A stretch of 64,000 nucleotides of DNA from the human T2T-CHM13v2.0 reference genome, Homo sapiens: NCBI RefSeq assembly GCF_009914755.1, contig NC_060928.1; one strand, 5' to 3'. Under the pieces are notes generated by a model. The model had not been told where the DNA came from. It worked only from the letters and a program-made list of their open reading frames with translations, and made no database searches. The position numbers were made by a program, and so were the translations under genes. This document shows positions 53,782 through 62,113 of the stretch, piece by piece. Every line of letters begins with the position of its first letter. Position 1 is the stretch's first letter.

Positions 53782-56208
53782 TCCATTTTTATTTGATTTT
53801 TGTATAAGGCGAGAAATAGGGATCAAGTTTCATTCTTCTGCGTATGGATATCTAGTTTTCCTGGCATCATTTATCAAAGAGACTGTCTTTTCCCCCAATA
53901 TGTGTTCCTGGCACCTTTGTTGAAACTGAGTTCATTGTAGGTGTGTGGATTTGTTTGTGGGTTCTGTATTGGTCTATGTGTCTGTCTTTATGCCAGTACC
54001 ACACTGTTTTGGTTACTATAGCTCTAGCTCTGTAGTATAATTTAAAGTCAGGTAATGTGATTCCTCCAGCTTTGTTTTTTGTTTGTTTGTTTGTTTGTTT
54101 TTTTGTTTGTTCAGAATAGCTTTGGCTATTCTGGGTCTTTTGTGATTCCATATAAATTTTATGATTTTTTTTCTACTTCTGTGAAGATTTCATTGGTATT
54201 TTGATAGGGATTGCATTGAATCTGTAGGTTGCTCAAGGTAGTATGGACATTTTAGCAAAATTGTTTTTTCCAATCCATGAACATGGAATATCTTTGCATT
54301 TTTCTGTGTCCATTTCTTCCATCATTGTTTTATAATTTTCATTGTAGAGGTCTTTCATTTCTTTGGTTAATTCCTAGGTATTTGGAATTGCATTTGTGAT
54401 TTGGATCTCAGCTTGAATGTTATTGGTATAGAGAAACGCTACTGATTTTTGTACATTGTTTTTGTATCTTGAAGTTTTACTGAAGTTGTTTACCAGATAT
54501 AGGACCTTTTGGGCAGAGACTATGGGGTTTTCTGGGTATAAAATAATATCATCTGTGAAGAGAGATAGTTTGACTTCCTCTATTCCTACTTGGATGCCTT
54601 TTAATTCTTTCTCTTGCCTGATTGCTCAGCTAGGACTTCCAGTATGCATTTAATATGAGTGGTGAGAGTGGGCTTCCTTGTCTTGTTCTGGTTCTTAAGG
54701 GGAATGCATTCAGCTTTTGCCCATTCAGTATGATGTTGGCTGTGGGTTTGTCATAGATGGCTCTTATATTTTATGCATAATTTGTTGAGGGTTTTTAACA
54801 TGAAGAGATGTTGAATTTTATTGAAAGCCTTTTCTTTGTCTATTGAGATGATGATGTGGTTTTTATTTTTCCTTCTGTTTATGTTATGAATCACATTTAT
54901 TGATTTGTGTATGTTGAATCAACCTTGCATCCTAGGAATAAAGCCTACTTTCTCATGATGGATTAGCTTTTTGATGTGCTGCTGGATTCGGTTTGATAGT
55001 ATTTAGTTGAGGATTTTTGCATCTGTGTTCATCAAAGATATTGGCCTGATGTTTTGTGTCTGTGTGTGTCTGCTGGGTTTTGGTATCAGAATGGTGCTGG
55101 CCTCATAGAGTGAGTTAGGGAGGAGTCCTTTTCCTCAATTTTTGGGAATAGTTTCAGTAGAATTGGTACTGGCTCTTCATTATACATCTGGTAGAATTCT
55201 GCTGTGTAGCCATATGGCTCAGGGCTTTTTCTGATTGGTAGGTTTTTTATGAATGATTCAATTTTGGAACTCATTATTGGTCTGTTCAAGGTTTTAATTT
55301 CTTCCTGGTTCAATCTTGGGAGGTTGTATGTTTTCAGTAATTTATTCATTTCTTCTAGGTTTCTGGTATGTGTGTGTAGAGGTGTTCATAATAGTCTCTG
55401 AGGAGTTTTTCTATTTCTGTGGGGTCAGTGCTAATTCCCCCTTTGTCCTTTCTGATTGTCCTTTTTTGAATCTTCTCTCTTTTTTTCTATATAATTCTAA
55501 CTAGTAGTCTATCAATCTTATTTATTATTTCAAAAAACCAACTTTAGGTTTTGTTGATCTTTTGCATGTTTTTTCACATCTCAATTTTATTCAGTTTGGC
55601 TCTGATTTTGGTTATTTGTTTTCTTCTGTTAGCTTTGGGGTTTTTTTTTTCTTGTTTTTCTGATTCCTCTAGGTGTGACGTTAGATTGTTAATTTGAGAG
55701 CTTTCTAACTTTCTGATGTGGGCATTTAGCACTATAAACTATCCTCTTAACACTTCTTCATTTGTGTCCCAGAGATTCTAGTATATTGTATCTTTGTTTT
55801 CATAAGTTTCAAATAATTTTTTTATTTCTGCCTTAATTTCACTGTTTACCCAAAAGTCATTTATGAGACAGTTGTTTAGTTTTCATATAATTGTATTGTT
55901 TTGAGAGATCTTATTAGTATTGATTTCTGTTTTTATTTTGCTGTCTTCCAAAGGCTTGGTTGGTATGATTTTGATTTTTCTGAATGTGTTATGAATTGTT
56001 TTATGGCCAAGCATGTGGTTGATTTTAGAGTATGTGCCATGTGCAGATGAGAAGAATGTATATTTTGTTGTTGTTGGATGGAGTGTTTTGTAGATGTCTG
56101 TTAGGTCTATTTGGTCATATTGTGTTTAGGAATATGTAACAAATATGTAACAAATATCTTTGTTAGTTTTCTACCTTGATGTTCTGTCTATTACTGTCAG
56201 TGGGGTAC

Positions 56209-56586
56209 TGTATTAGTCTGTTCTCACACTGCTATAAAGAACTACCTGAGACTGGATAATTTATGGAGAAAAGAGGTTAAATTGACTCACAGTTTGCAGG
56301 CTGTACAGGAAGCATGACTGGGAGGGCTCAGGAATCTTATAATCATGGCAAAGGCAAAGGGGAAGCAAGCACATCTTACCATGGCAGAGCAGGAGAGAGA
56401 GAAGGGGAAAGTGCTACACACTTTCAAACAACCAGGTATCTTGATAACTCACTCACTATCATGAGAATAGCAAGGGGGAAGTCCACCCCTCATGATACAA
56501 TCACCTCCCACCAGGCCCCTCCTTCAACACTATTAATTACAATTTGATATGAGATTTGGGTGAGGACACAGTGTCAAACCATATCA
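56209..56586 (-). mobile_element. MaLR 3' LTR (MSTA-like)
   Basis: tgtattagtctgttctcacactgctataaagaactacctgagactgg..caggctgtacaggaagcatg..caaaccatatca; adjacent polypurine tract (56587-56625, reverse strand) marks it as the 3' LTR. Confidence 0.92.
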
Positions 56587-58520
56587 TTCCACCCCTGGCC
56601 CCTCCCAAATCCCATTTCCTTCTCATATTTCAAAGCACAATTATGCTTTCCCAACAGTCCTGCAAAGTCATAACTAATTCCAGCATTAACTCAAAAGTCC
56701 AAGTCCAAAGTCTCATCTGAGACAAGGCAAGTCCCTTCTGCCTCTGAGCCTTTAAAATCAAAAGCAAGTTAGTTACTTTCAAGATATAATGGGGGTACAG
56801 GAATTTGGTAAATAGACCTTTTCTAAGAGGGAGAAATCAGCCAAAACAAGGGGGCTACAGGCCCCATACAAGTCTGAAACCCAGCAGGGCAGTCATTAAA
56901 TCTCAAAGCTTTAAAATAATCTCCTTTGACTCTATGTCTCACATCCAGGCCACATTGATGCAAGGGGTAGACTCCCAAGGCCATGGACAGTTCTGCCCCT
57001 GTGGCTCTGCAGTTCCCACAGCTGTTTTCATGGGCTGGCATTGAGTGCCTGCAGCTTTTCTGGGCATGTGGTGCCAGCTGTTGGTGGGCCTACTATCCTG
57101 AGGTCTGGAGGATGGTGGCCATCTTCTCACAGCTCCATTAGGCAGAGCCCCAGTGGTGACTCTGTGTGGGAGCTTCAACCCCACGTTTTCCGTCTGCACT
57201 GCCCTAGTTGAGGTTCTCCATGAGGGCTCTACACCACAGCAGACTTCTGCCTGGACATCCAGGCATTTCCATACATCCTCTAAAATCTAGGTAGAGACTC
57301 CAAAACCTCAACTCTTAGCTTCTGCACACCTGCAGGCTCCGCACCACATGGAAGCCATCAAGGCTTTGAGCTTTCACCCTCTGAAGCAATGGCCCGAGCT
57401 GTACATTGGCCCATTTTAGCCATGGCTGAAGCTGGAGTGGCTCAGATGCAGGGCGCCATGTTCTGAGGCTGCACAGAGCAGCAAGGCCCTGGGCCTGGCC
57501 CATGAAACATTTTTTTCCTCCTAGGTCTTCAGGCCTGTGATAAGAGGGGCTGCCATGAAGGTCTCTGAAATGCCCTGGAGACATTTTCTCCGTCGTCTTG
57601 GCAGTTAACATTCAGCTCCTCTTTACATATGCAAATTTCTGCAGCCTTGAATTCCTCTTCAGAAAATGGGTTTTTCTTTTTATATTGCATGGTTGGGCTG
57701 CAAATTTTCCAAACTTTTTTTTTTTTTTTTTTTTTTGGAGACAGAGTCTCACTCTGTTGCCCAGGATGGAGGGCAGTGGTGTGATCTTGGCTCACTGTAA
57801 TTTCCACCTCCTATATTCAAGTGATTCTCATGCTTCAGCCTCCTGAGTAGCTGGGATTACAGGCATGCACTAACACACCTGGCTAATTTTTGTATTTTTA
57901 GTAGAGATGGAGTTTTGCCATGTTGGCCAGGCTGGACTCGAACTCCTGGCCTCAAGTGATCTGCTGGCCTTAGCCTCCCAAAGTGCTGGGATTACAGGCA
58001 TAAGTCACCACACCCAGCCCGAATTTTCCAAACTTTTATGCTTGCTTCCCTTTTAAATATAAGCTCTAGTTTTAGGTCATTTCTTTGTTTATGCAAATAA
58101 GCATAGGCTTTTAGAAGCAGCCAGGTCATATCTGGAACACTTTCCTGCTTAGAAATTTCTTCCGTCAGAAGAAATTTCGTCTCTCTCAAGTCCAAAGTTC
58201 CACAGATCTCTAGGGCAGGGGCACAATGCCACTAGTCTTTTTGCTAAAGCATAGCAAGAGTGAAAAATAATTATTCCAGTTTCTAGTAAATTCCTCATCT
58301 CCATCAGAGACCACCTCAGGCTGGACTTCACTGTCCATATCACTATCAGCATTTAGGTCACAACTATTCAGCAAGTCTCTAGAAAGTTCCAAACTTTCCC
58401 TCATCTTCCTGTCTTCTGAGCCCTCCAAACTATTCCAACCTCTGCCCATTACCCAGTTCCAAAGTCACTTCCACATTTTCAGGTCTCTTTATAGCAATGC
58501 CCCACTTCTCTGGTACCAAT
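56587..58520 (-). mobile_element. MaLR internal region (MSTA-int-like), PPT to PBS
   Basis: Typical THE1/MST-int sequence (ccaaagtctcatctgagacaaggcaagtccc..); ends ..gccccacttctctggtaccaat, the PBS on the reverse strand. Confidence 0.92.
57719..58019 (-). mobile_element. Alu (old S / Sz-like) inside MaLR internal region
   Basis: Dimeric Alu; TSD aattttccaaactttt at 57703-57718 / 58022-58037. Confidence 0.95.
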
Positions 58521-59585
58521 GGTGGAATGGCTTTTTGAAGTCACAATCACAACGCCAACTAGGTGTGAAAATACTTTACAAGGTTTGGGCAAAGTTCTCC
58601 AGAAGGCTGTGTATGCTTTGAATCAGCATCCAATATATGGTACTGTTTTTCCCATAGCGGGATTCATGGGTTCAGGAATCAAGGGGTGGAAGTGGAAGTG
58701 GCAGCATTCACCATCACCCCTAGTGACCCACTAGCAAAATTTTTACATTCTTTTCCCACAACATTATCTTCTACTGGCCTAGAGGTCTTAGTTCCAGAGG
58801 AAGGAATGCTGCCACCAGGAGACACAGCAATGATTCCATTTAACCGGAAGTTAAGATTGCCACCTGGCCACTCTGGCCTCCTCTTGCCTCTAAGTCAACA
58901 GGCTAAGAAGGGAGTTACAGTGTTGGCTGAAGTGATTGACCCAGACTATCAAGATGAAATAAGACTACTACTCCACAATGGAAGTAAGGAAAAGTATGTC
59001 TGGAATACAGGAGACCCCTTAGGGCGTCTCTTAGTATTACCATGCCCTGTGATTAAGGTCAATGGAAACTACAACAACCCAATTCAGGCAGGACTACAAC
59101 TGGCCAGAACCCCTCAGGAATGAAAGTTTTGGTCACTCTACCAGGTAAAAAACCGTGACCAGCCAAGGTGCTTGCTGAAGGCAAAGGGAATACAGAATGG
59201 GTAGTAGAAGAAGGTAGTTATGAATACCAGCTATGACCACATGACCAGGTACAGAAATGAGGATTGTAATTGTCATGACTATTTCCTCCTTATTTTGTTA
59301 TAAATATGTTTGTGCATACATACACCTGTACTGAGAAAGTGTCTTCATTTTATTTCCCTTCTTTTTCCTTTATCACGTAACGTAAGATTTATTGACTTCA
59401 TATCAGCATTTAAGTGTTGTTAACTTTATTTAATAGCATTTAGGTTAAGGATTAGTGTGCTTCTTGTTGTATGAAGGATAGTTGTATTATGTTAGGCATA
59501 ATTATGACCTATTATTTTCTTTATTTGGAGATTAAGTGTGATTTCAGGAGATGTGTATGAGTGCCAAGTTGACAAGGAGTTGACT
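58521..59585 (+). mobile_element. HERV-L internal 3' segment (integrase C-terminal part, dUTPase, 3' UTR, PPT)
   Basis: ggtggaatgg..gaagtcacaa.., LQKAVYALNQHPIYG; dUTPase frame; PPT-like gttgacaaggagttgact directly before the LTR. Confidence 0.92.
58686..59123 (+). pseudogene. HERV-L dUTPase-domain relic (145-codon open stretch)
   Basis: LPPGDT..LRLPPGHSGLLLP..GVTVLAEVIDPDYQDEIRLLLHN..GDPLGRLLVLP; motif 3 (normally G-x-ID-x-DY-x-GE) has both glycines substituted. Confidence 0.85.
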
Positions 59586-60171
59586 TGTGATAGTCAATAT
59601 GAGGTGACAACCTGATTGGATTGAAGAATGCCTAGATAGCTGGTAAAGTATTGTTTCTGGGTGTGTAAGTTAGGATGTTGCCTGAGGAGATTGACATTTG
59701 AGTCAGTGGACTGGAAGAGGAAGACCCACCCTGAATGTTCAATGGGCACCATCCAATTGGCGCCAGTGCAGCTAGAACAAAAGCAGGAGGAAGAAGGTGG
59801 GATAAGACGGCTTGCTGTGTCTTCTGGCTTTCATTTCTTTCCTGTGGTGGATACTTCCTTTTGTTTCTCCTGCCCTTGGCCATCAGACTCCAAGTTCTTC
59901 AGCCTTTTGACTCTTGGACTTCTGCCAGTGTTTGACGAGGGGCTCTTGGGCCTTCAACCACAGACTGAAGGCTGCACTGTTGACTTTCTTGCTTTTGAGG
60001 CTTTTGGACTCAGACTGAGCCACTACTGGCCTCTATCTTCCTCAACTTGCATATGGCCTATTGTGGGACTTTGCCTTGTGATAGTGTGAGCCAATTCTCC
60101 CTAATAAACTTCCTTTCATATATACGTATATCCTGTTAGTTCTGTCCCTCTGGAGAACCCTGACTAATACA
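59586..60171 (+). mobile_element. HERV-L 3' LTR (MLT2A2/MLT2B3-like)
   Basis: tgtgatagtcaata..tgattggattgaag..atttgagtcagtggactgg..aataaac..ttctgtccctctggagaaccctgactaataca. Confidence 0.93.
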
Positions 60172-62113
60172 GGTACTGATGTCTTCCGCTATTATTTTGT
60201 GGTTGTCTAAGTATCTTCCTAGGTCTCTTAAAATTTGTTTTATGAATCTGGGTTCTCCAGTATTGGGTGCAGATATACTTAGGATAGTTAAGTCTTTTCG
60301 AATTGAACCCTTAATCATTATGTAATACCTTTCTTTGTCCTTTTTGTCATTTGTCAGTTTAAAGACTATTTTGTCTGAAATTAGAATGGCAACCCCTGCT
60401 CTTTTTTGTTTTCCATTTGCTTGCTTGATTTTCTTTTTCCAGTCCTTTACTTTGAGCCTAAGGATATCATTGTATGTGAGTTGGATCTCTTGAAGGCAGC
60501 ATACAGTTGGGTCTTACCCCTTTAGATTCTTAATTCTTCACCTTTTAAATGGGGTGTTTAGACCATTTATGTTCAAGTTTAATATTGATATGTACAGATT
60601 TGATTCTATCATTGTGGTGTTAGTTGGTTGTTATGCAGACTTGATTGTATAGTTGCTTTATGGTGTCAATTGTCTATGTACTGAAGTGTGTTTTTGTGAT
60701 GGCTAGTAACAGTTTTTTGTTTCCATATTTAGCATGCCCTTAAGGACCTCTTGTAAGGCAGGTCTGGTGGTAATGCATTCCCTTAGCATTTGCTTGTCTG
60801 AAAAGGATTTTTTTTTTTTTTCATTTATGAAGCTTAGCTTCACTGGGTATGAAATTCTTGGTTGGAATTTTTTTCTTTTGAGAATACTAAATATAAGCAC
60901 CCAGTCTCTTCTGGCTTGTAGGATTTCTGCTGAAAGACCCACTGTTAGCCTGATAGGGTCCCCTATGTAGGTGACCTATCCGTTCTCTCTAACTGCCTTT
61001 AATATTTTTTCTTTTACTTTGACCTTGGGAATCTGATGACTATGAGTCTTGGGGATGGTCATCTTATATAGTATCTCACAGAAGTTCTCTGAATTTCCTG
61101 AATTTGAATGTTTACCTCTCTAGTAATGTTGGGGGAGTTTTCATGGACAATATCCTCAAATATGTCTTCCAAGTTGCTTGTTCTCCCTCCCTCTTTTTCA
61201 GGGATACCAGTGAGTCATAGGTTTAGTCTCTTTACATAATATCATATTTCTCAGAGGTTTGTTTATTTTTTTTCTTTATTTTGTCTGACTAAATTTTTTT
61301 TAAGAACCAGTCTTCGAGCTCTGAGATTCTTTCCTCAGCTTGGTCTATTCCGCTGTTAATACTTTTGATTTATTATGAAATTATTGAAATGAGTATTTCA
61401 GATCTATCAGATCAGTTTGGTTCTTTCTTAAAATGTCTATTTTGTCTTTTAGATCTCTTATCATTTTATTGGACTCCTTGGATTGGGTTTTGGCTTTCTC
61501 CTGAATCTTGATGCTCTTCTTTGCTATCCTGATTCTGAATTCCTTGTCTGTCATTTTAGTCATTTCAGTATGGTTAAAAACAATTGCTGGGGAGCAAGTG
61601 AAGTCATATGGAAGTAAGAAGACACTTTGGCTTTTTGAGTCGCCAGAGTTCTTGCACTGGTTCTTTCTTATCTATATGGGCTGATGTTCCTTTAATCTTT
61701 GAAGTTACTGCCCTTTGGATGGGTTTTTTTTGCTTTCTTTGATGCCCTTGTGGTATAAATTGGATTCAGTTAACTGGCTTCATTGCTGAAAGATTTCAGG
61801 GGGCTACAGCTCAGCTCAGCACAGCTGGGCTGTGTGCTGTAATCCTAGGCAGCTGGTAGCAGGCCCATGGCTTTATTCTCTGGTACTTCAAGGTTAAGCA
61901 CCTCCTGCACTGGAGGGGCTGAGGTGTTCCCGGCCTGCTGGCAACAACGATCTGATGGGGGATGCTGGCAAAACTGCTTCTTTGGGGTATGGCAGCAGGG
62001 TCCTTGCATGTATGTGTGCACTGGTGGGAGCAGGGCAGCAGAGTCCGTGCACACACATGCTTGTGCCAGTAGCAGCAAGGCAGTGGAGTGCGCATGCACA
62101 TGCACGGGCAGGG

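What the first reader, a model, noticed from the sequence alone, without database searches (positions are those of the whole stretch)
56204..60176. MaLR / HERV-L head-to-head hybrid provirus with two U5 ends and one target-site duplication
Seen: a 3963-bp insert (56209-60171) in L1-D is flanked by a perfect 5-bp duplication, GGTAC (56204-56208 and 60172-60176). Removing it gives cagtgg-ggtac-tgatgtc, which aligns without a gap to the same L1 site elsewhere in the window (cagtggggtgttaaagtc, ~51219). The two ends belong to different families and face opposite ways. The left is a minus-strand MSTA-like 3' LTR plus internal region; the right is a plus-strand HERV-L 3' segment plus MLT2 3' LTR. 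Both outer termini are U5 ends (tgtattagtc.. / ..gactaataca, a 10-bp inverted repeat), there is no U3 outer end, and neither partner has a 5' LTR. Known: 5-bp TSDs are typical of ERV-L/MaLR integration, and MaLRs lack pol and are presumed to borrow ERV-L enzymes. Inference: one integrase reaction inserted a hybrid cDNA built from a MaLR RNA and a HERV-L RNA reverse-transcribed in the same particle. That would be a fossil record of MaLR-ERVL co-packaging, and would show that the integrase accepts a U5/U5 substrate.
Basis: partly seen in the sequence, partly recalled or inferred. Interest (0 to 1): 0.92.

Follow-up and report, generated by a model that had tools for sequence, protein, structure and literature searches.

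The report
Head-to-head MaLR/HERV-L hybrid insertion
Two different ancient retroelements, a MaLR and a HERV-L, lie tail-outwards inside one 5-bp target duplication and are joined exactly at the MaLR primer-binding site, so they most likely entered the genome as one aberrant DNA in one integration, a rare physical trace of the two elements sharing replication machinery.

Summary
A 3963-bp insert (56209-60171) in an old L1 is flanked by a perfect GGTAC/GGTAC duplication. With one copy kept, the L1 flanks fit three other in-window L1 copies best. The left half is a minus-strand MaLR (THE1/MST group): a 3' LTR plus the complete internal region, carrying a later Alu. The right half is plus-strand HERV-L: integrase C-terminus, dUTPase and an MLT2-type 3' LTR. 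Both outer ends are canonical U5 termini, and there is no 5' LTR.

New here: the inner junction lies at the MaLR primer-binding site, with a 3-nt microhomology (AAT) to HERV-L. The MaLR half is therefore exactly a full minus-strand DNA before the second strand transfer. Best model: the 3' ends of two minus-strand cDNAs annealed and primed each other. That gives a linear DNA with two natural U5 ends, which was integrated once.

Both families make 5-bp duplications and share the U5 terminus and the start of the PBS. The two halves show equal private divergence (about 0.10). The junction is unique in the genome.

Co-packaging in one particle is the most economical reading but is not proven; host end-joining of two cDNAs remains possible. 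Primate orthologues and Dfam names could not be checked.

The parts
56204..56208 (.). Left copy of the 5-bp target-site duplication GGTAC (L1 sequence)
   Evidence: with one copy kept, the L1 flanks align best to 3 of 3 other in-window L1 copies.
56209..56586 (-). MaLR (THE1/MST-group) 3' LTR, 378 bp. Its U5 end faces left and abuts the duplication.
   Evidence: 83-86% identity to genome LTR copies over 1-378; contiguous with the internal 3' end, as in L010; 24 of 27 mapped copies end in AATACA, as this one does (the other three differ by one base).
56587..58520 (-). Complete MaLR internal region, from the polypurine tract next to the LTR (56587-56610) to the primer-binding site (58500-58518, read on the + strand as its complement). 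It carries a nested Alu.
   Evidence: collinear with L010, L013 and L014; 19 of 19 full copies start their internal region with the same PBS, preceded by a 5' LTR and a 6-nt spacer that are missing here.
57719..58021 (-). Later Alu insertion (poly-T first on the + strand) with a 16-bp duplication at 57703-57718 and 58022-58037
   Evidence: family D3; this stretch matches unrelated places in several loci, and the MaLR alignment overlaps by about 15 nt across it. The name Alu is recalled from the look of the sequence.
58518..58520 (.). Inner junction: the 3 nt AAT shared by both parents (microhomology)
   Evidence: MaLR copies read ...TGGTACCA-AT... on this strand (16 of 19 have AT next to the PBS). 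HERV-L copies read ...TAG-AATGG... (4 of 5 AAT, 1 AAC).
58521..59585 (+). HERV-L internal 3' segment: integrase C-terminus from just after the catalytic-glutamate motif, the dUTPase domain, and the 3' untranslated part
   Evidence: 39 genome copies match from window 58518-58524 onward at 88-90%. Pfam dUTPase PF00692, E 4.7e-14, on window:58569-59123; collinear with L002 and L003.
59586..60171 (+). MLT2-type 3' LTR of HERV-L, 586 bp. Its U5 end faces right and abuts the duplication.
   Evidence: 81-85% identity to 40 genome copies; 18 of 29 copies reach the same last bases; start corrected to TGTGAT... at 59586.
60172..60176 (.). Right copy of the 5-bp target-site duplication GGTAC

Best explanation
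This is one integration of one aberrant linear cDNA, made from two different templates in a single HERV-L-type particle. A MaLR minus-strand DNA had been copied to the end of its template, the primer-binding site. A HERV-L minus-strand DNA had stopped in the integrase region. Their 3' ends annealed over AAT/ATT, and each was extended using the other as template. Each new strand ran to the 5' end of the other minus strand, which is the natural U5 terminus. The result was a blunt double-stranded DNA with a U5 end on each side and no 5' LTR. The HERV-L-type integrase trimmed both ends to CA and inserted the molecule into an L1 with the usual 5-bp stagger. Both LTRs point outwards, so the hybrid could not make genomic RNA and was never copied again. 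Shown: the anatomy, the duplication, the termini, the junction position, the microhomology, uniqueness, the family habits and equal divergence. Inferred: the order of events, mutual priming, one particle, and which integrase acted.
For: (1) Single duplication: GGTAC on both sides, with one copy fitting other L1 copies best in 3 of 3. (2) Five base pairs is the habit of both families. Among MaLR solo LTRs, 21 of 27 mapped (of 29 fetched) have flanks with at most 1 mismatch, 13 of them exact. Among MLT2 solo LTRs it is 13 of 16 mapped (of 29), 5 exact. (3) Both outer ends are canonical U5 termini ending in CA. (4) The MaLR half is the whole internal region plus 3' LTR and stops at the PBS, whereas 19 of 19 normal copies continue into a 6-nt spacer and a 5' LTR. 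That is the extent of a minus-strand DNA before the second strand transfer (standard retroviral reverse transcription). A random break would fall within these 3 positions of a cDNA of about 2.4 kb about 1 time in 800 (my arithmetic). (5) There is a 3-nt microhomology and no filler. For random joins, 3 nt or more is expected about 5% of the time (my arithmetic). (6) Shared machinery is plausible. The motif of U5 end, short spacer and TGGTACCA occurs 171 times against 0 in the control, in a HERV-L class and a MaLR class. The HERV-L PBS, read in 3 of 3 fetched 5' ends, also follows the MaLR-type spacer 774 times against 0 in the control. (7) The halves have equal private divergence. Length-weighted ML terminal branches are 0.100 for the MaLR half (1794 bp) and 0.104 for the HERV-L half (1654 bp) (weighting is my arithmetic). 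(8) The junction is unique in the genome, as expected for a dead-on-arrival hybrid.
Against: No orthologous primate locus could be examined, so simultaneous arrival of both halves is not shown directly. The sequence cannot tell reverse transcriptase from a host polymerase as the enzyme that extended the annealed ends. It also cannot tell one particle from two. By star decomposition the MaLR LTR alone looks younger (0.060-0.065) than the MLT2 LTR (0.087-0.102). The copies were chosen by likeness to the window, which biases these figures, and only 7 HERV-L internal copies were used. No second example was found: the PBS-to-PBS dimer search gave 0 true hits, and a looser search for aberrant PBS junctions was at chance level (10 vs 16 in the control). 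The duplicated GGTAC is also the core of the PBS palindrome at the inner junction; the model does not explain this coincidence.
Confidence: 0.58

Rival explanations
1. Two separate, incomplete cDNAs (a MaLR one lacking its 5' LTR and a HERV-L one broken in pol) were joined by host repair (microhomology-mediated or polymerase-theta-type end joining). The joining happened either before integration or after a two-donor integration in which each cDNA gave one U5 end to one integrase complex. Co-packaging in one particle is then not required.
For: The final sequence would be identical: one 5-bp duplication, two U5 ends, and a 3-nt microhomology typical of such joining. Integrase complexes can hold two U5 duplexes in vitro (PMC3623958, passages).
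Against: It needs two abortive intermediates from different particles to meet and to be held by one integrase complex. A MaLR intermediate ending at the PBS is largely single-stranded, a poor substrate for classical end joining. Reverse transcription normally runs inside the capsid (established knowledge), so one particle is simpler.
Confidence: 0.25
2. Two independent insertions (a nested or adjacent MaLR and HERV-L) were later reshaped by deletions or an inversion, and the flanking GGTAC repeat belongs to only one of them or is chance.
For: GGTAC also occurs inside the palindromic PBS core at the inner junction (58511-58518), so short repeats that could mediate rearrangement exist. Rearranged class III insertions are reported in mouse (PMC6466679, passages).
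Against: It needs at least two breakpoints to fall exactly on element termini: the MaLR U5 end against the left duplication, and loss of the MaLR 5' LTR exactly at the PBS. Undoing an inversion between the GGTAC copies gives an arrangement that no integration explains: a MaLR without a 5' LTR fused to L1 at its PBS. No inner duplication flanks either element. One-copy L1 alignment is best in 3 of 3.
Confidence: 0.06
3. The junction is an assembly artefact, or a copy of a hybrid family that spread by retrotransposition.
For: None found.
Against: Only the window itself spans the junction among the 40 best of 5046 candidates. A 24-nt junction pattern gave 2 hits with up to 3 mismatches: the window and an unrelated site. 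Divergence of about 10% in both halves and an Alu nested with its own duplication indicate an old, real locus.
Confidence: 0.02

Closest known systems
Complex LTR-retrotransposon insertions made by abnormal template switching (Angela, Squiq, Opie; Sabot and Schulman 2007, PMC1950507; abstract and section 4 read)
   Same: Two parent elements are fused during reverse transcription of co-packaged RNAs and integrated once. The single family-typical 5-bp duplication is the key evidence.
   Different: Those complexes are same-orientation, same-family, share an internal LTR, and have normal U3 and U5 outer ends. Here the halves are inverted, come from an autonomous element and its presumed parasite, have no shared LTR, and both outer ends are U5.
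Recombinant ERV families from co-packaged genomes (e.g. HARLEQUIN; ERV1/ERV3 recombinants; PMC5753468, passages)
   Same: A chimera of two retroelement lineages made at the cDNA stage.
   Different: Those are collinear copy-choice recombinants with two LTRs that went on to multiply. This one is head-to-head, lacks a 5' LTR, and is unique in the genome.
Integrase complexes assembled on two U5 ends in vitro (PMC3623958, passages; that foamy-virus intasomes are built from U5 oligonucleotides is recalled)
   Same: One integrase complex engages two U5 termini and can make a concerted insertion.
   Different: Those are test-tube reactions with short oligonucleotides. This would be a germline in vivo product carrying kilobases between the ends.
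Autonomous/non-autonomous class III pairs: MERV-L with MT/ORR1 MaLRs in mouse (PMC6466679, passages)
   Same: MaLRs are described as non-autonomous relatives of ERV-L. Here they share the U5 terminus and PBS.
   Different: The dependence is inferred from likeness. In my searches I found no paper reporting a physical MaLR-ERV-L chimera or co-packaging (listings; none of the 15 listed held 'co-packaging').
Defective HIV-1 proviruses with inversions or asymmetric LTRs (PMC9278108, passages)
   Same: Aberrant reverse-transcription products that are still integrated.
   Different: They arise within one genome and have U3 and U5 outer ends. No U5/U5 heterologous hybrid appears in the passages I read.

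Membership tests
ERV-L (HERV-L with MLT2-type LTR) | dUTPase domain downstream of integrase (PMC5753468) | tested here: met
   Pfam PF00692, E 4.7e-14, 52.7 bits (cut-off 22), on window:58569-59123.
ERV-L (HERV-L with MLT2-type LTR) | LTR of the MLT2 type, TG...CA, contiguous with the internal 3' end | tested here: met
   The subfamily name was not testable without Dfam.
ERV-L (HERV-L with MLT2-type LTR) | Complete provirus: 5' LTR, PBS, gag and pol 5' part | tested here: not met
   HERV-L homology starts at 58518 in the integrase region. Upstream is MaLR sequence on the other strand.
MaLR (THE1/MST group) | LTR of about 380 bp ending ...AATACA, plus a non-coding internal region of about 1.6 kb starting with the TGGTACCAG... 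PBS | tested here: met
   collinear with full copies, and the PBS is identical to 8 of 19 copies over its 19 nt as printed.
MaLR (THE1/MST group) | Two LTRs in the same orientation | tested here: not met
   The 5' LTR and 6-nt spacer present in 19 of 19 comparison copies are absent here.
Integrase-mediated class III insertion | 5-bp target-site duplication directly abutting TG...CA termini | tested here: met
   GGTAC/GGTAC. Family habit: 21 of 27 MaLR and 13 of 16 MLT2 solo LTRs.
Nested insertion (one element inserted into the other) | Inner element complete or solo, flanked by its own duplication inside the outer element | tested here: not met
   No inner duplication. The MaLR ends at its PBS on one side and at the outer duplication on the other.
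Template-switch complex element (Sabot and Schulman type) | Same orientation, internal shared LTR, near-identical outer LTRs, single duplication | tested here: not met
   Only the single duplication is shared. The orientation is inverted, and the outer LTRs belong to different families.
Hybrid formed in one particle (co-packaging) | Both RNAs in the same capsid at reverse transcription | not testable with these tools
   Only indirect support: the PBS junction, the microhomology, and the shared PBS and U5 ends.

The most novel reading that the evidence does not exclude
This locus is a fossil of two minus-strand cDNAs, one MaLR and one HERV-L, priming each other inside one HERV-L particle. That would be the first physical evidence that MaLR RNA was packaged, reverse-transcribed and integrated by ERV-L machinery. 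It would also show a so far undescribed class of integration-competent aberrant retroviral DNA: a head-to-head heterodimer with two U5 ends.
Probability: 0.5. Interest if true: 0.8.

Novelty: new variant of a known kind. Interest (0 to 1): 0.66.

Why it matters
MaLRs are among the most numerous LTR elements of mammals and have no polymerase or integrase of their own. Their dependence on ERV-L has rested on likeness alone. A single insertion that physically joins a MaLR replication intermediate to a HERV-L one places both cDNAs in the same integrase complex, and probably in the same particle. It also gives a concrete, searchable signature: outward-facing U5 ends of two elements, one shared 5-bp duplication, and an inner junction at a PBS. 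That signature can be looked for in annotated genomes, above all in mouse, where MERV-L and MT elements are young. It adds a mutual-priming route to the list of reverse-transcription errors that still yield integrated DNA.

Tried and rejected
- **Rfam on 55500-60800:** 0 matches at gathering score.
- **Palindromic PBS-to-PBS dimers:** I searched for head-to-head MaLR dimers joined at the PBS (24-nt pattern, up to 3 mismatches). There was 1 site on chr14. Its flanks show no MaLR internal homology, only a 71% match to an LTR-like stretch, so it is chance.
- **MaLR PBS complement followed by something other than the normal spacer:** 10 hits against 16 in the control, so uninformative.
- **Same-orientation chimeras:**
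  - HERV-L spacer plus the MaLR-variant PBS gave 5 hits, all at 2 mismatches. They look like MaLR spacers with a 1-nt loss.
  - The reciprocal pattern turned out to be the normal state of many MaLRs (774 hits), so it cannot serve as a chimera test.
- **Second junction-like 24-mer at chr4:129.5 Mb:** no homology to either element beyond the 24 nt, so chance.
- **Fetching whole HERV-L proviruses to read their 5' ends:** The PBS was read instead from three 111-nt stretches.
- **Literature:** 'LTR retrotransposon' + 'inverted dimer' + 'cDNA' returned 0 papers. Searches on 'U5-U5' / concerted integration, 'two U5', and minus-strand / inverted / head-to-head gave no in vivo U5/U5 provirus in the listings or passages I read.
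- **Considered and rejected on logic:**
  - a nested insertion followed by two exact deletions;
  - an inversion between GGTAC copies;
  - intermolecular autointegration, which would put an LTR terminus, not a PBS, at the inner junction;
  - flanking GGTAC derived from PBS copies, because the spacers are absent and one copy is needed for the L1 alignment.
Full report
**1. What is in the sequence**

The stretch 56209-60171 (3963 bp) interrupts an old L1. It is flanked by GGTAC at 56204-56208 and again at 60172-60176. I aligned the L1 flanks to three other L1 copies in the same window, keeping zero, one or two copies of GGTAC. One copy gave the best score in 3 of 3:

| L1 copy | One copy | Two copies | Zero copies |
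|---|---|---|---|
| near 29.9k | 119 | 111 | 109.5 |
| near 51.2k | 120.5 | 112.5 | 107.5 |
| near 23.3k | 94 | 84 | 81 |

The alignment across the site is gapless for the copies near 51.2k and 23.3k. The copy near 29.9k has a 1-nt indel 10 nt to the right. So the L1 carries exactly five extra bases, a true target-site duplication. The two flanks are contiguous L1 positions.

**2. Anatomy**

The window's own genome can be searched, so I compared the insert with other copies of each element.

- **56209-56586, minus strand.** A MaLR LTR of the THE1/MST group, 83-86% identical to the best genome copies.
- **56587-58518, minus strand.** The whole MaLR internal region, collinear with full copies (L010, L013, L014). 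It starts next to the LTR with a purine-rich tract, so the LTR is a 3' LTR.
- **57719-58021.** A later 303-bp insertion with a 16-bp duplication of its own. I call it an Alu from recall.
- **58518 onward, plus strand.** HERV-L. Of the 40 best of 5046 candidates, 39 match from window 58518-58524 rightwards at 88-90%. The frame reads the integrase C-terminus. The next open stretch has a dUTPase domain (Pfam PF00692, E 4.7e-14), the mark of the ERV-L lineage (PMC5753468, passages).
- **59586-60171.** An MLT2-type LTR, collinear with the 3' LTR of a provirus (L002).

Both outer ends are canonical U5 ends. Among MaLR copies, 24 of 27 mapped end in AATACA and the other three differ by one base. Among MLT2 copies, 18 of 29 reach the same last bases. 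Neither half has a 5' LTR. I could not check subfamily names without a repeat library.

**3. The inner junction (new)**

On the plus strand the MaLR part ends with the complement of its primer-binding site (58500-58518). In 19 of 19 full MaLR copies the PBS is preceded by a 6-nt spacer and the 5' LTR. Here both are missing, and HERV-L sequence follows. The three bases AAT (58518-58520) fit both parents:

- MaLR copies read ...CCA-AT... on this strand (16 of 19).
- HERV-L copies read ...TAG-AATGG... (4 of 5; the fifth has AAC).

So the MaLR half is PBS, internal region, polypurine tract and 3' LTR. That is the extent of a retroviral minus-strand DNA that has been copied to the end of its RNA but has not made the second strand transfer (standard reverse-transcription scheme). 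A random break would fall within those three positions of a cDNA of about 2.4 kb about once in 800. Microhomology of 3 nt or more is expected in about 5% of random joins. Both figures are my arithmetic.

**4. Family habits**

- **Five-base duplications are the rule in both families.** Among MaLR solo LTRs, 21 of 27 mapped (of 29 fetched) have flanks equal or with one mismatch, 13 of them exact. Among MLT2 solo LTRs it is 13 of 16 mapped (of 29), 5 exact.
- **The two families share their U5 terminus and the start of the PBS.** The motif 'U5 end, 0-10 nt, TGGTACCA' occurs 171 times in the genome against 0 for the reversed control. It falls into two classes. One has a 5-nt spacer and lies about 4.5 kb upstream of the integrase matches (HERV-L). 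The other has a 6-nt spacer (MaLR).
- **The PBS itself is shared.** The HERV-L PBS read in 3 of 3 fetched 5' ends also follows the MaLR-type spacer 774 times (control 0). The MaLR subfamily in the window has a slightly altered version. That HERV-L is named for a leucine-tRNA PBS is recalled; PMC6114882 (passages) gives only the naming rule.

**5. Age**

I built no consensus. I aligned each segment with the fetched copies and read the window copy's private branch.

| Half | Segment | ML terminal branch |
|---|---|---|
| MaLR | LTR | 0.079 |
| MaLR | internal 5' part | 0.090 |
| MaLR | internal 56800-57718 | 0.115 |
| HERV-L | internal | 0.099 |
| HERV-L | MLT2 LTR | 0.112 |

Weighted by length, this is 0.100 over 1794 bp for the MaLR half against 0.104 over 1654 bp for the HERV-L half (my arithmetic). 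Star decomposition gave 0.060-0.085 for the MaLR segments against 0.082-0.102 for the HERV-L segments; there the MaLR LTR alone looks younger.

Three caveats apply:
- The copies were picked by likeness to the window, which biases such figures.
- Only 7 HERV-L internal copies were available.
- Some rows were dropped for low coverage before the counts. In one search, this was 1 of 29 MaLR LTR copies and 2 of 19 MaLR internal copies. In one search, it was 3 of 19.

Other copies of both families have median private branches of 0.074-0.087, so the families were active in the same era. The halves are not clearly different in age.

**6. Uniqueness**

Only the window spans the junction. A 24-nt junction pattern with up to 3 mismatches hit the window and one other place on the same chromosome. 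That place has no likeness to either element beyond the 24 nt. This fits a hybrid whose two LTRs point outwards and which therefore could not be transcribed as a genome.

**7. Mechanism**

The simplest account runs as follows. Two minus-strand DNAs, a MaLR one finished at its PBS and a HERV-L one stopped in integrase, annealed by their 3' ends over three bases. Each was extended on the other. Each extension ends at the 5' end of the other minus strand, which is how a normal U5 end is made. The product has two U5 ends. Integrase trimmed both to CA and inserted it with a 5-bp stagger.

Integrated copies end at CA while the PBS lies 5-6 nt further on, so the enzyme must remove that spacer at every U5 end (inference).

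The main rival keeps the single integrase event. It lets a host polymerase join two cDNAs from different particles, before integration or after a two-donor integration. The sequence cannot separate the two accounts. I prefer one particle because reverse transcription runs inside the capsid. Later rearrangement of two independent insertions needs several breakpoints to fall exactly on element ends, and I rate it low.

**8. Against, and left open**

- I found no second example. The search for PBS-to-PBS MaLR dimers gave one chance hit. A looser search was at control level. Chimera patterns were uninformative.
- The duplicated GGTAC is also the core of the palindromic PBS start at the junction. 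That has roughly a 4-in-1024 chance, and I cannot explain it.
- No primate orthologue, repeat library or second assembly could be consulted.
- Supplements of the papers were not opened.

**9. Comparison with what is known**

- **Same logic, different structure.** The single duplication around a complex element is used for template-switch complexes in grasses, but those are same-orientation and same-family with normal ends (PMC1950507, abstract and section 4).
- **Collinear ERV recombinants** are common (PMC5753468).
- **Integrase can hold two U5 ends in vitro** (PMC3623958).
- **HIV proviruses with inversions exist** (PMC9278108).
- **MaLRs are called non-autonomous relatives of ERV-L** (PMC6466679).

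My searches found no report of an inverted U5/U5 hybrid or of MaLR-ERV-L co-packaging. They cover only the held open-access library.

**10. Verdict**

- Single integration of a hybrid is well supported.
- Origin in one particle by mutual priming is the best reading, at about 0.58.
- It is a new variant of known aberrant reverse-transcription products.
- It is a single locus but mechanistically informative: interest 0.66.

Noticed in passing
window 56204-56208, 58511-58518, 60172-60176: The duplicated target GGTAC is also contained in the 8-nt palindrome TGGTACCA that starts the PBS at the inner junction. That is about a 4-in-1024 coincidence, and no model here explains it.
   Followed up: partly
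genome-wide; L010-L028; L090-L092: In both HERV-L and MaLR the PBS lies 5-6 nt beyond the terminal CA (spacers GATTT and GAAAAT/GTAAAT), while integrated LTRs end at CA. The integrase must therefore trim 5-6 nt from the U5 end, not the usual 2 (inference).
   Followed up: partly
genome-wide: The MaLR-type spacer followed by the exact HERV-L PBS occurs 774 times with up to 2 mismatches (control 0). Most MaLRs of this group therefore carry the HERV-L PBS. The subfamily in the window has a variant with extra bases.
   Followed up: partly
window 57719-58021: An Alu-like 303-bp insertion (poly-T first, 16-bp duplication at 57703-57718 and 58022-58037) inside the MaLR internal region. It must be younger than the hybrid. 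Its subfamily was not determined.
   Followed up: no
L030-L058: None of the 29 best matches to the MLT2-type LTR is followed by a PBS, so they are solo or 3' LTRs. Two U5-end variants exist: 18 share the longer end seen in the window and 11 have a shorter one.
   Followed up: no
L004: One HERV-L copy (chr14) has unrelated sequence immediately upstream of the same integrase position where the window's HERV-L half begins. Whether that is another break at this site was not examined.
   Followed up: no
L089 (chr14:51300973) and L093 (chr4:129506072): Two near-matches to my junction-type patterns proved to be chance. The first is a near-perfect 24-nt palindrome inside an unrelated LTR-like repeat. 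The second has no likeness to either element.
   Followed up: yes
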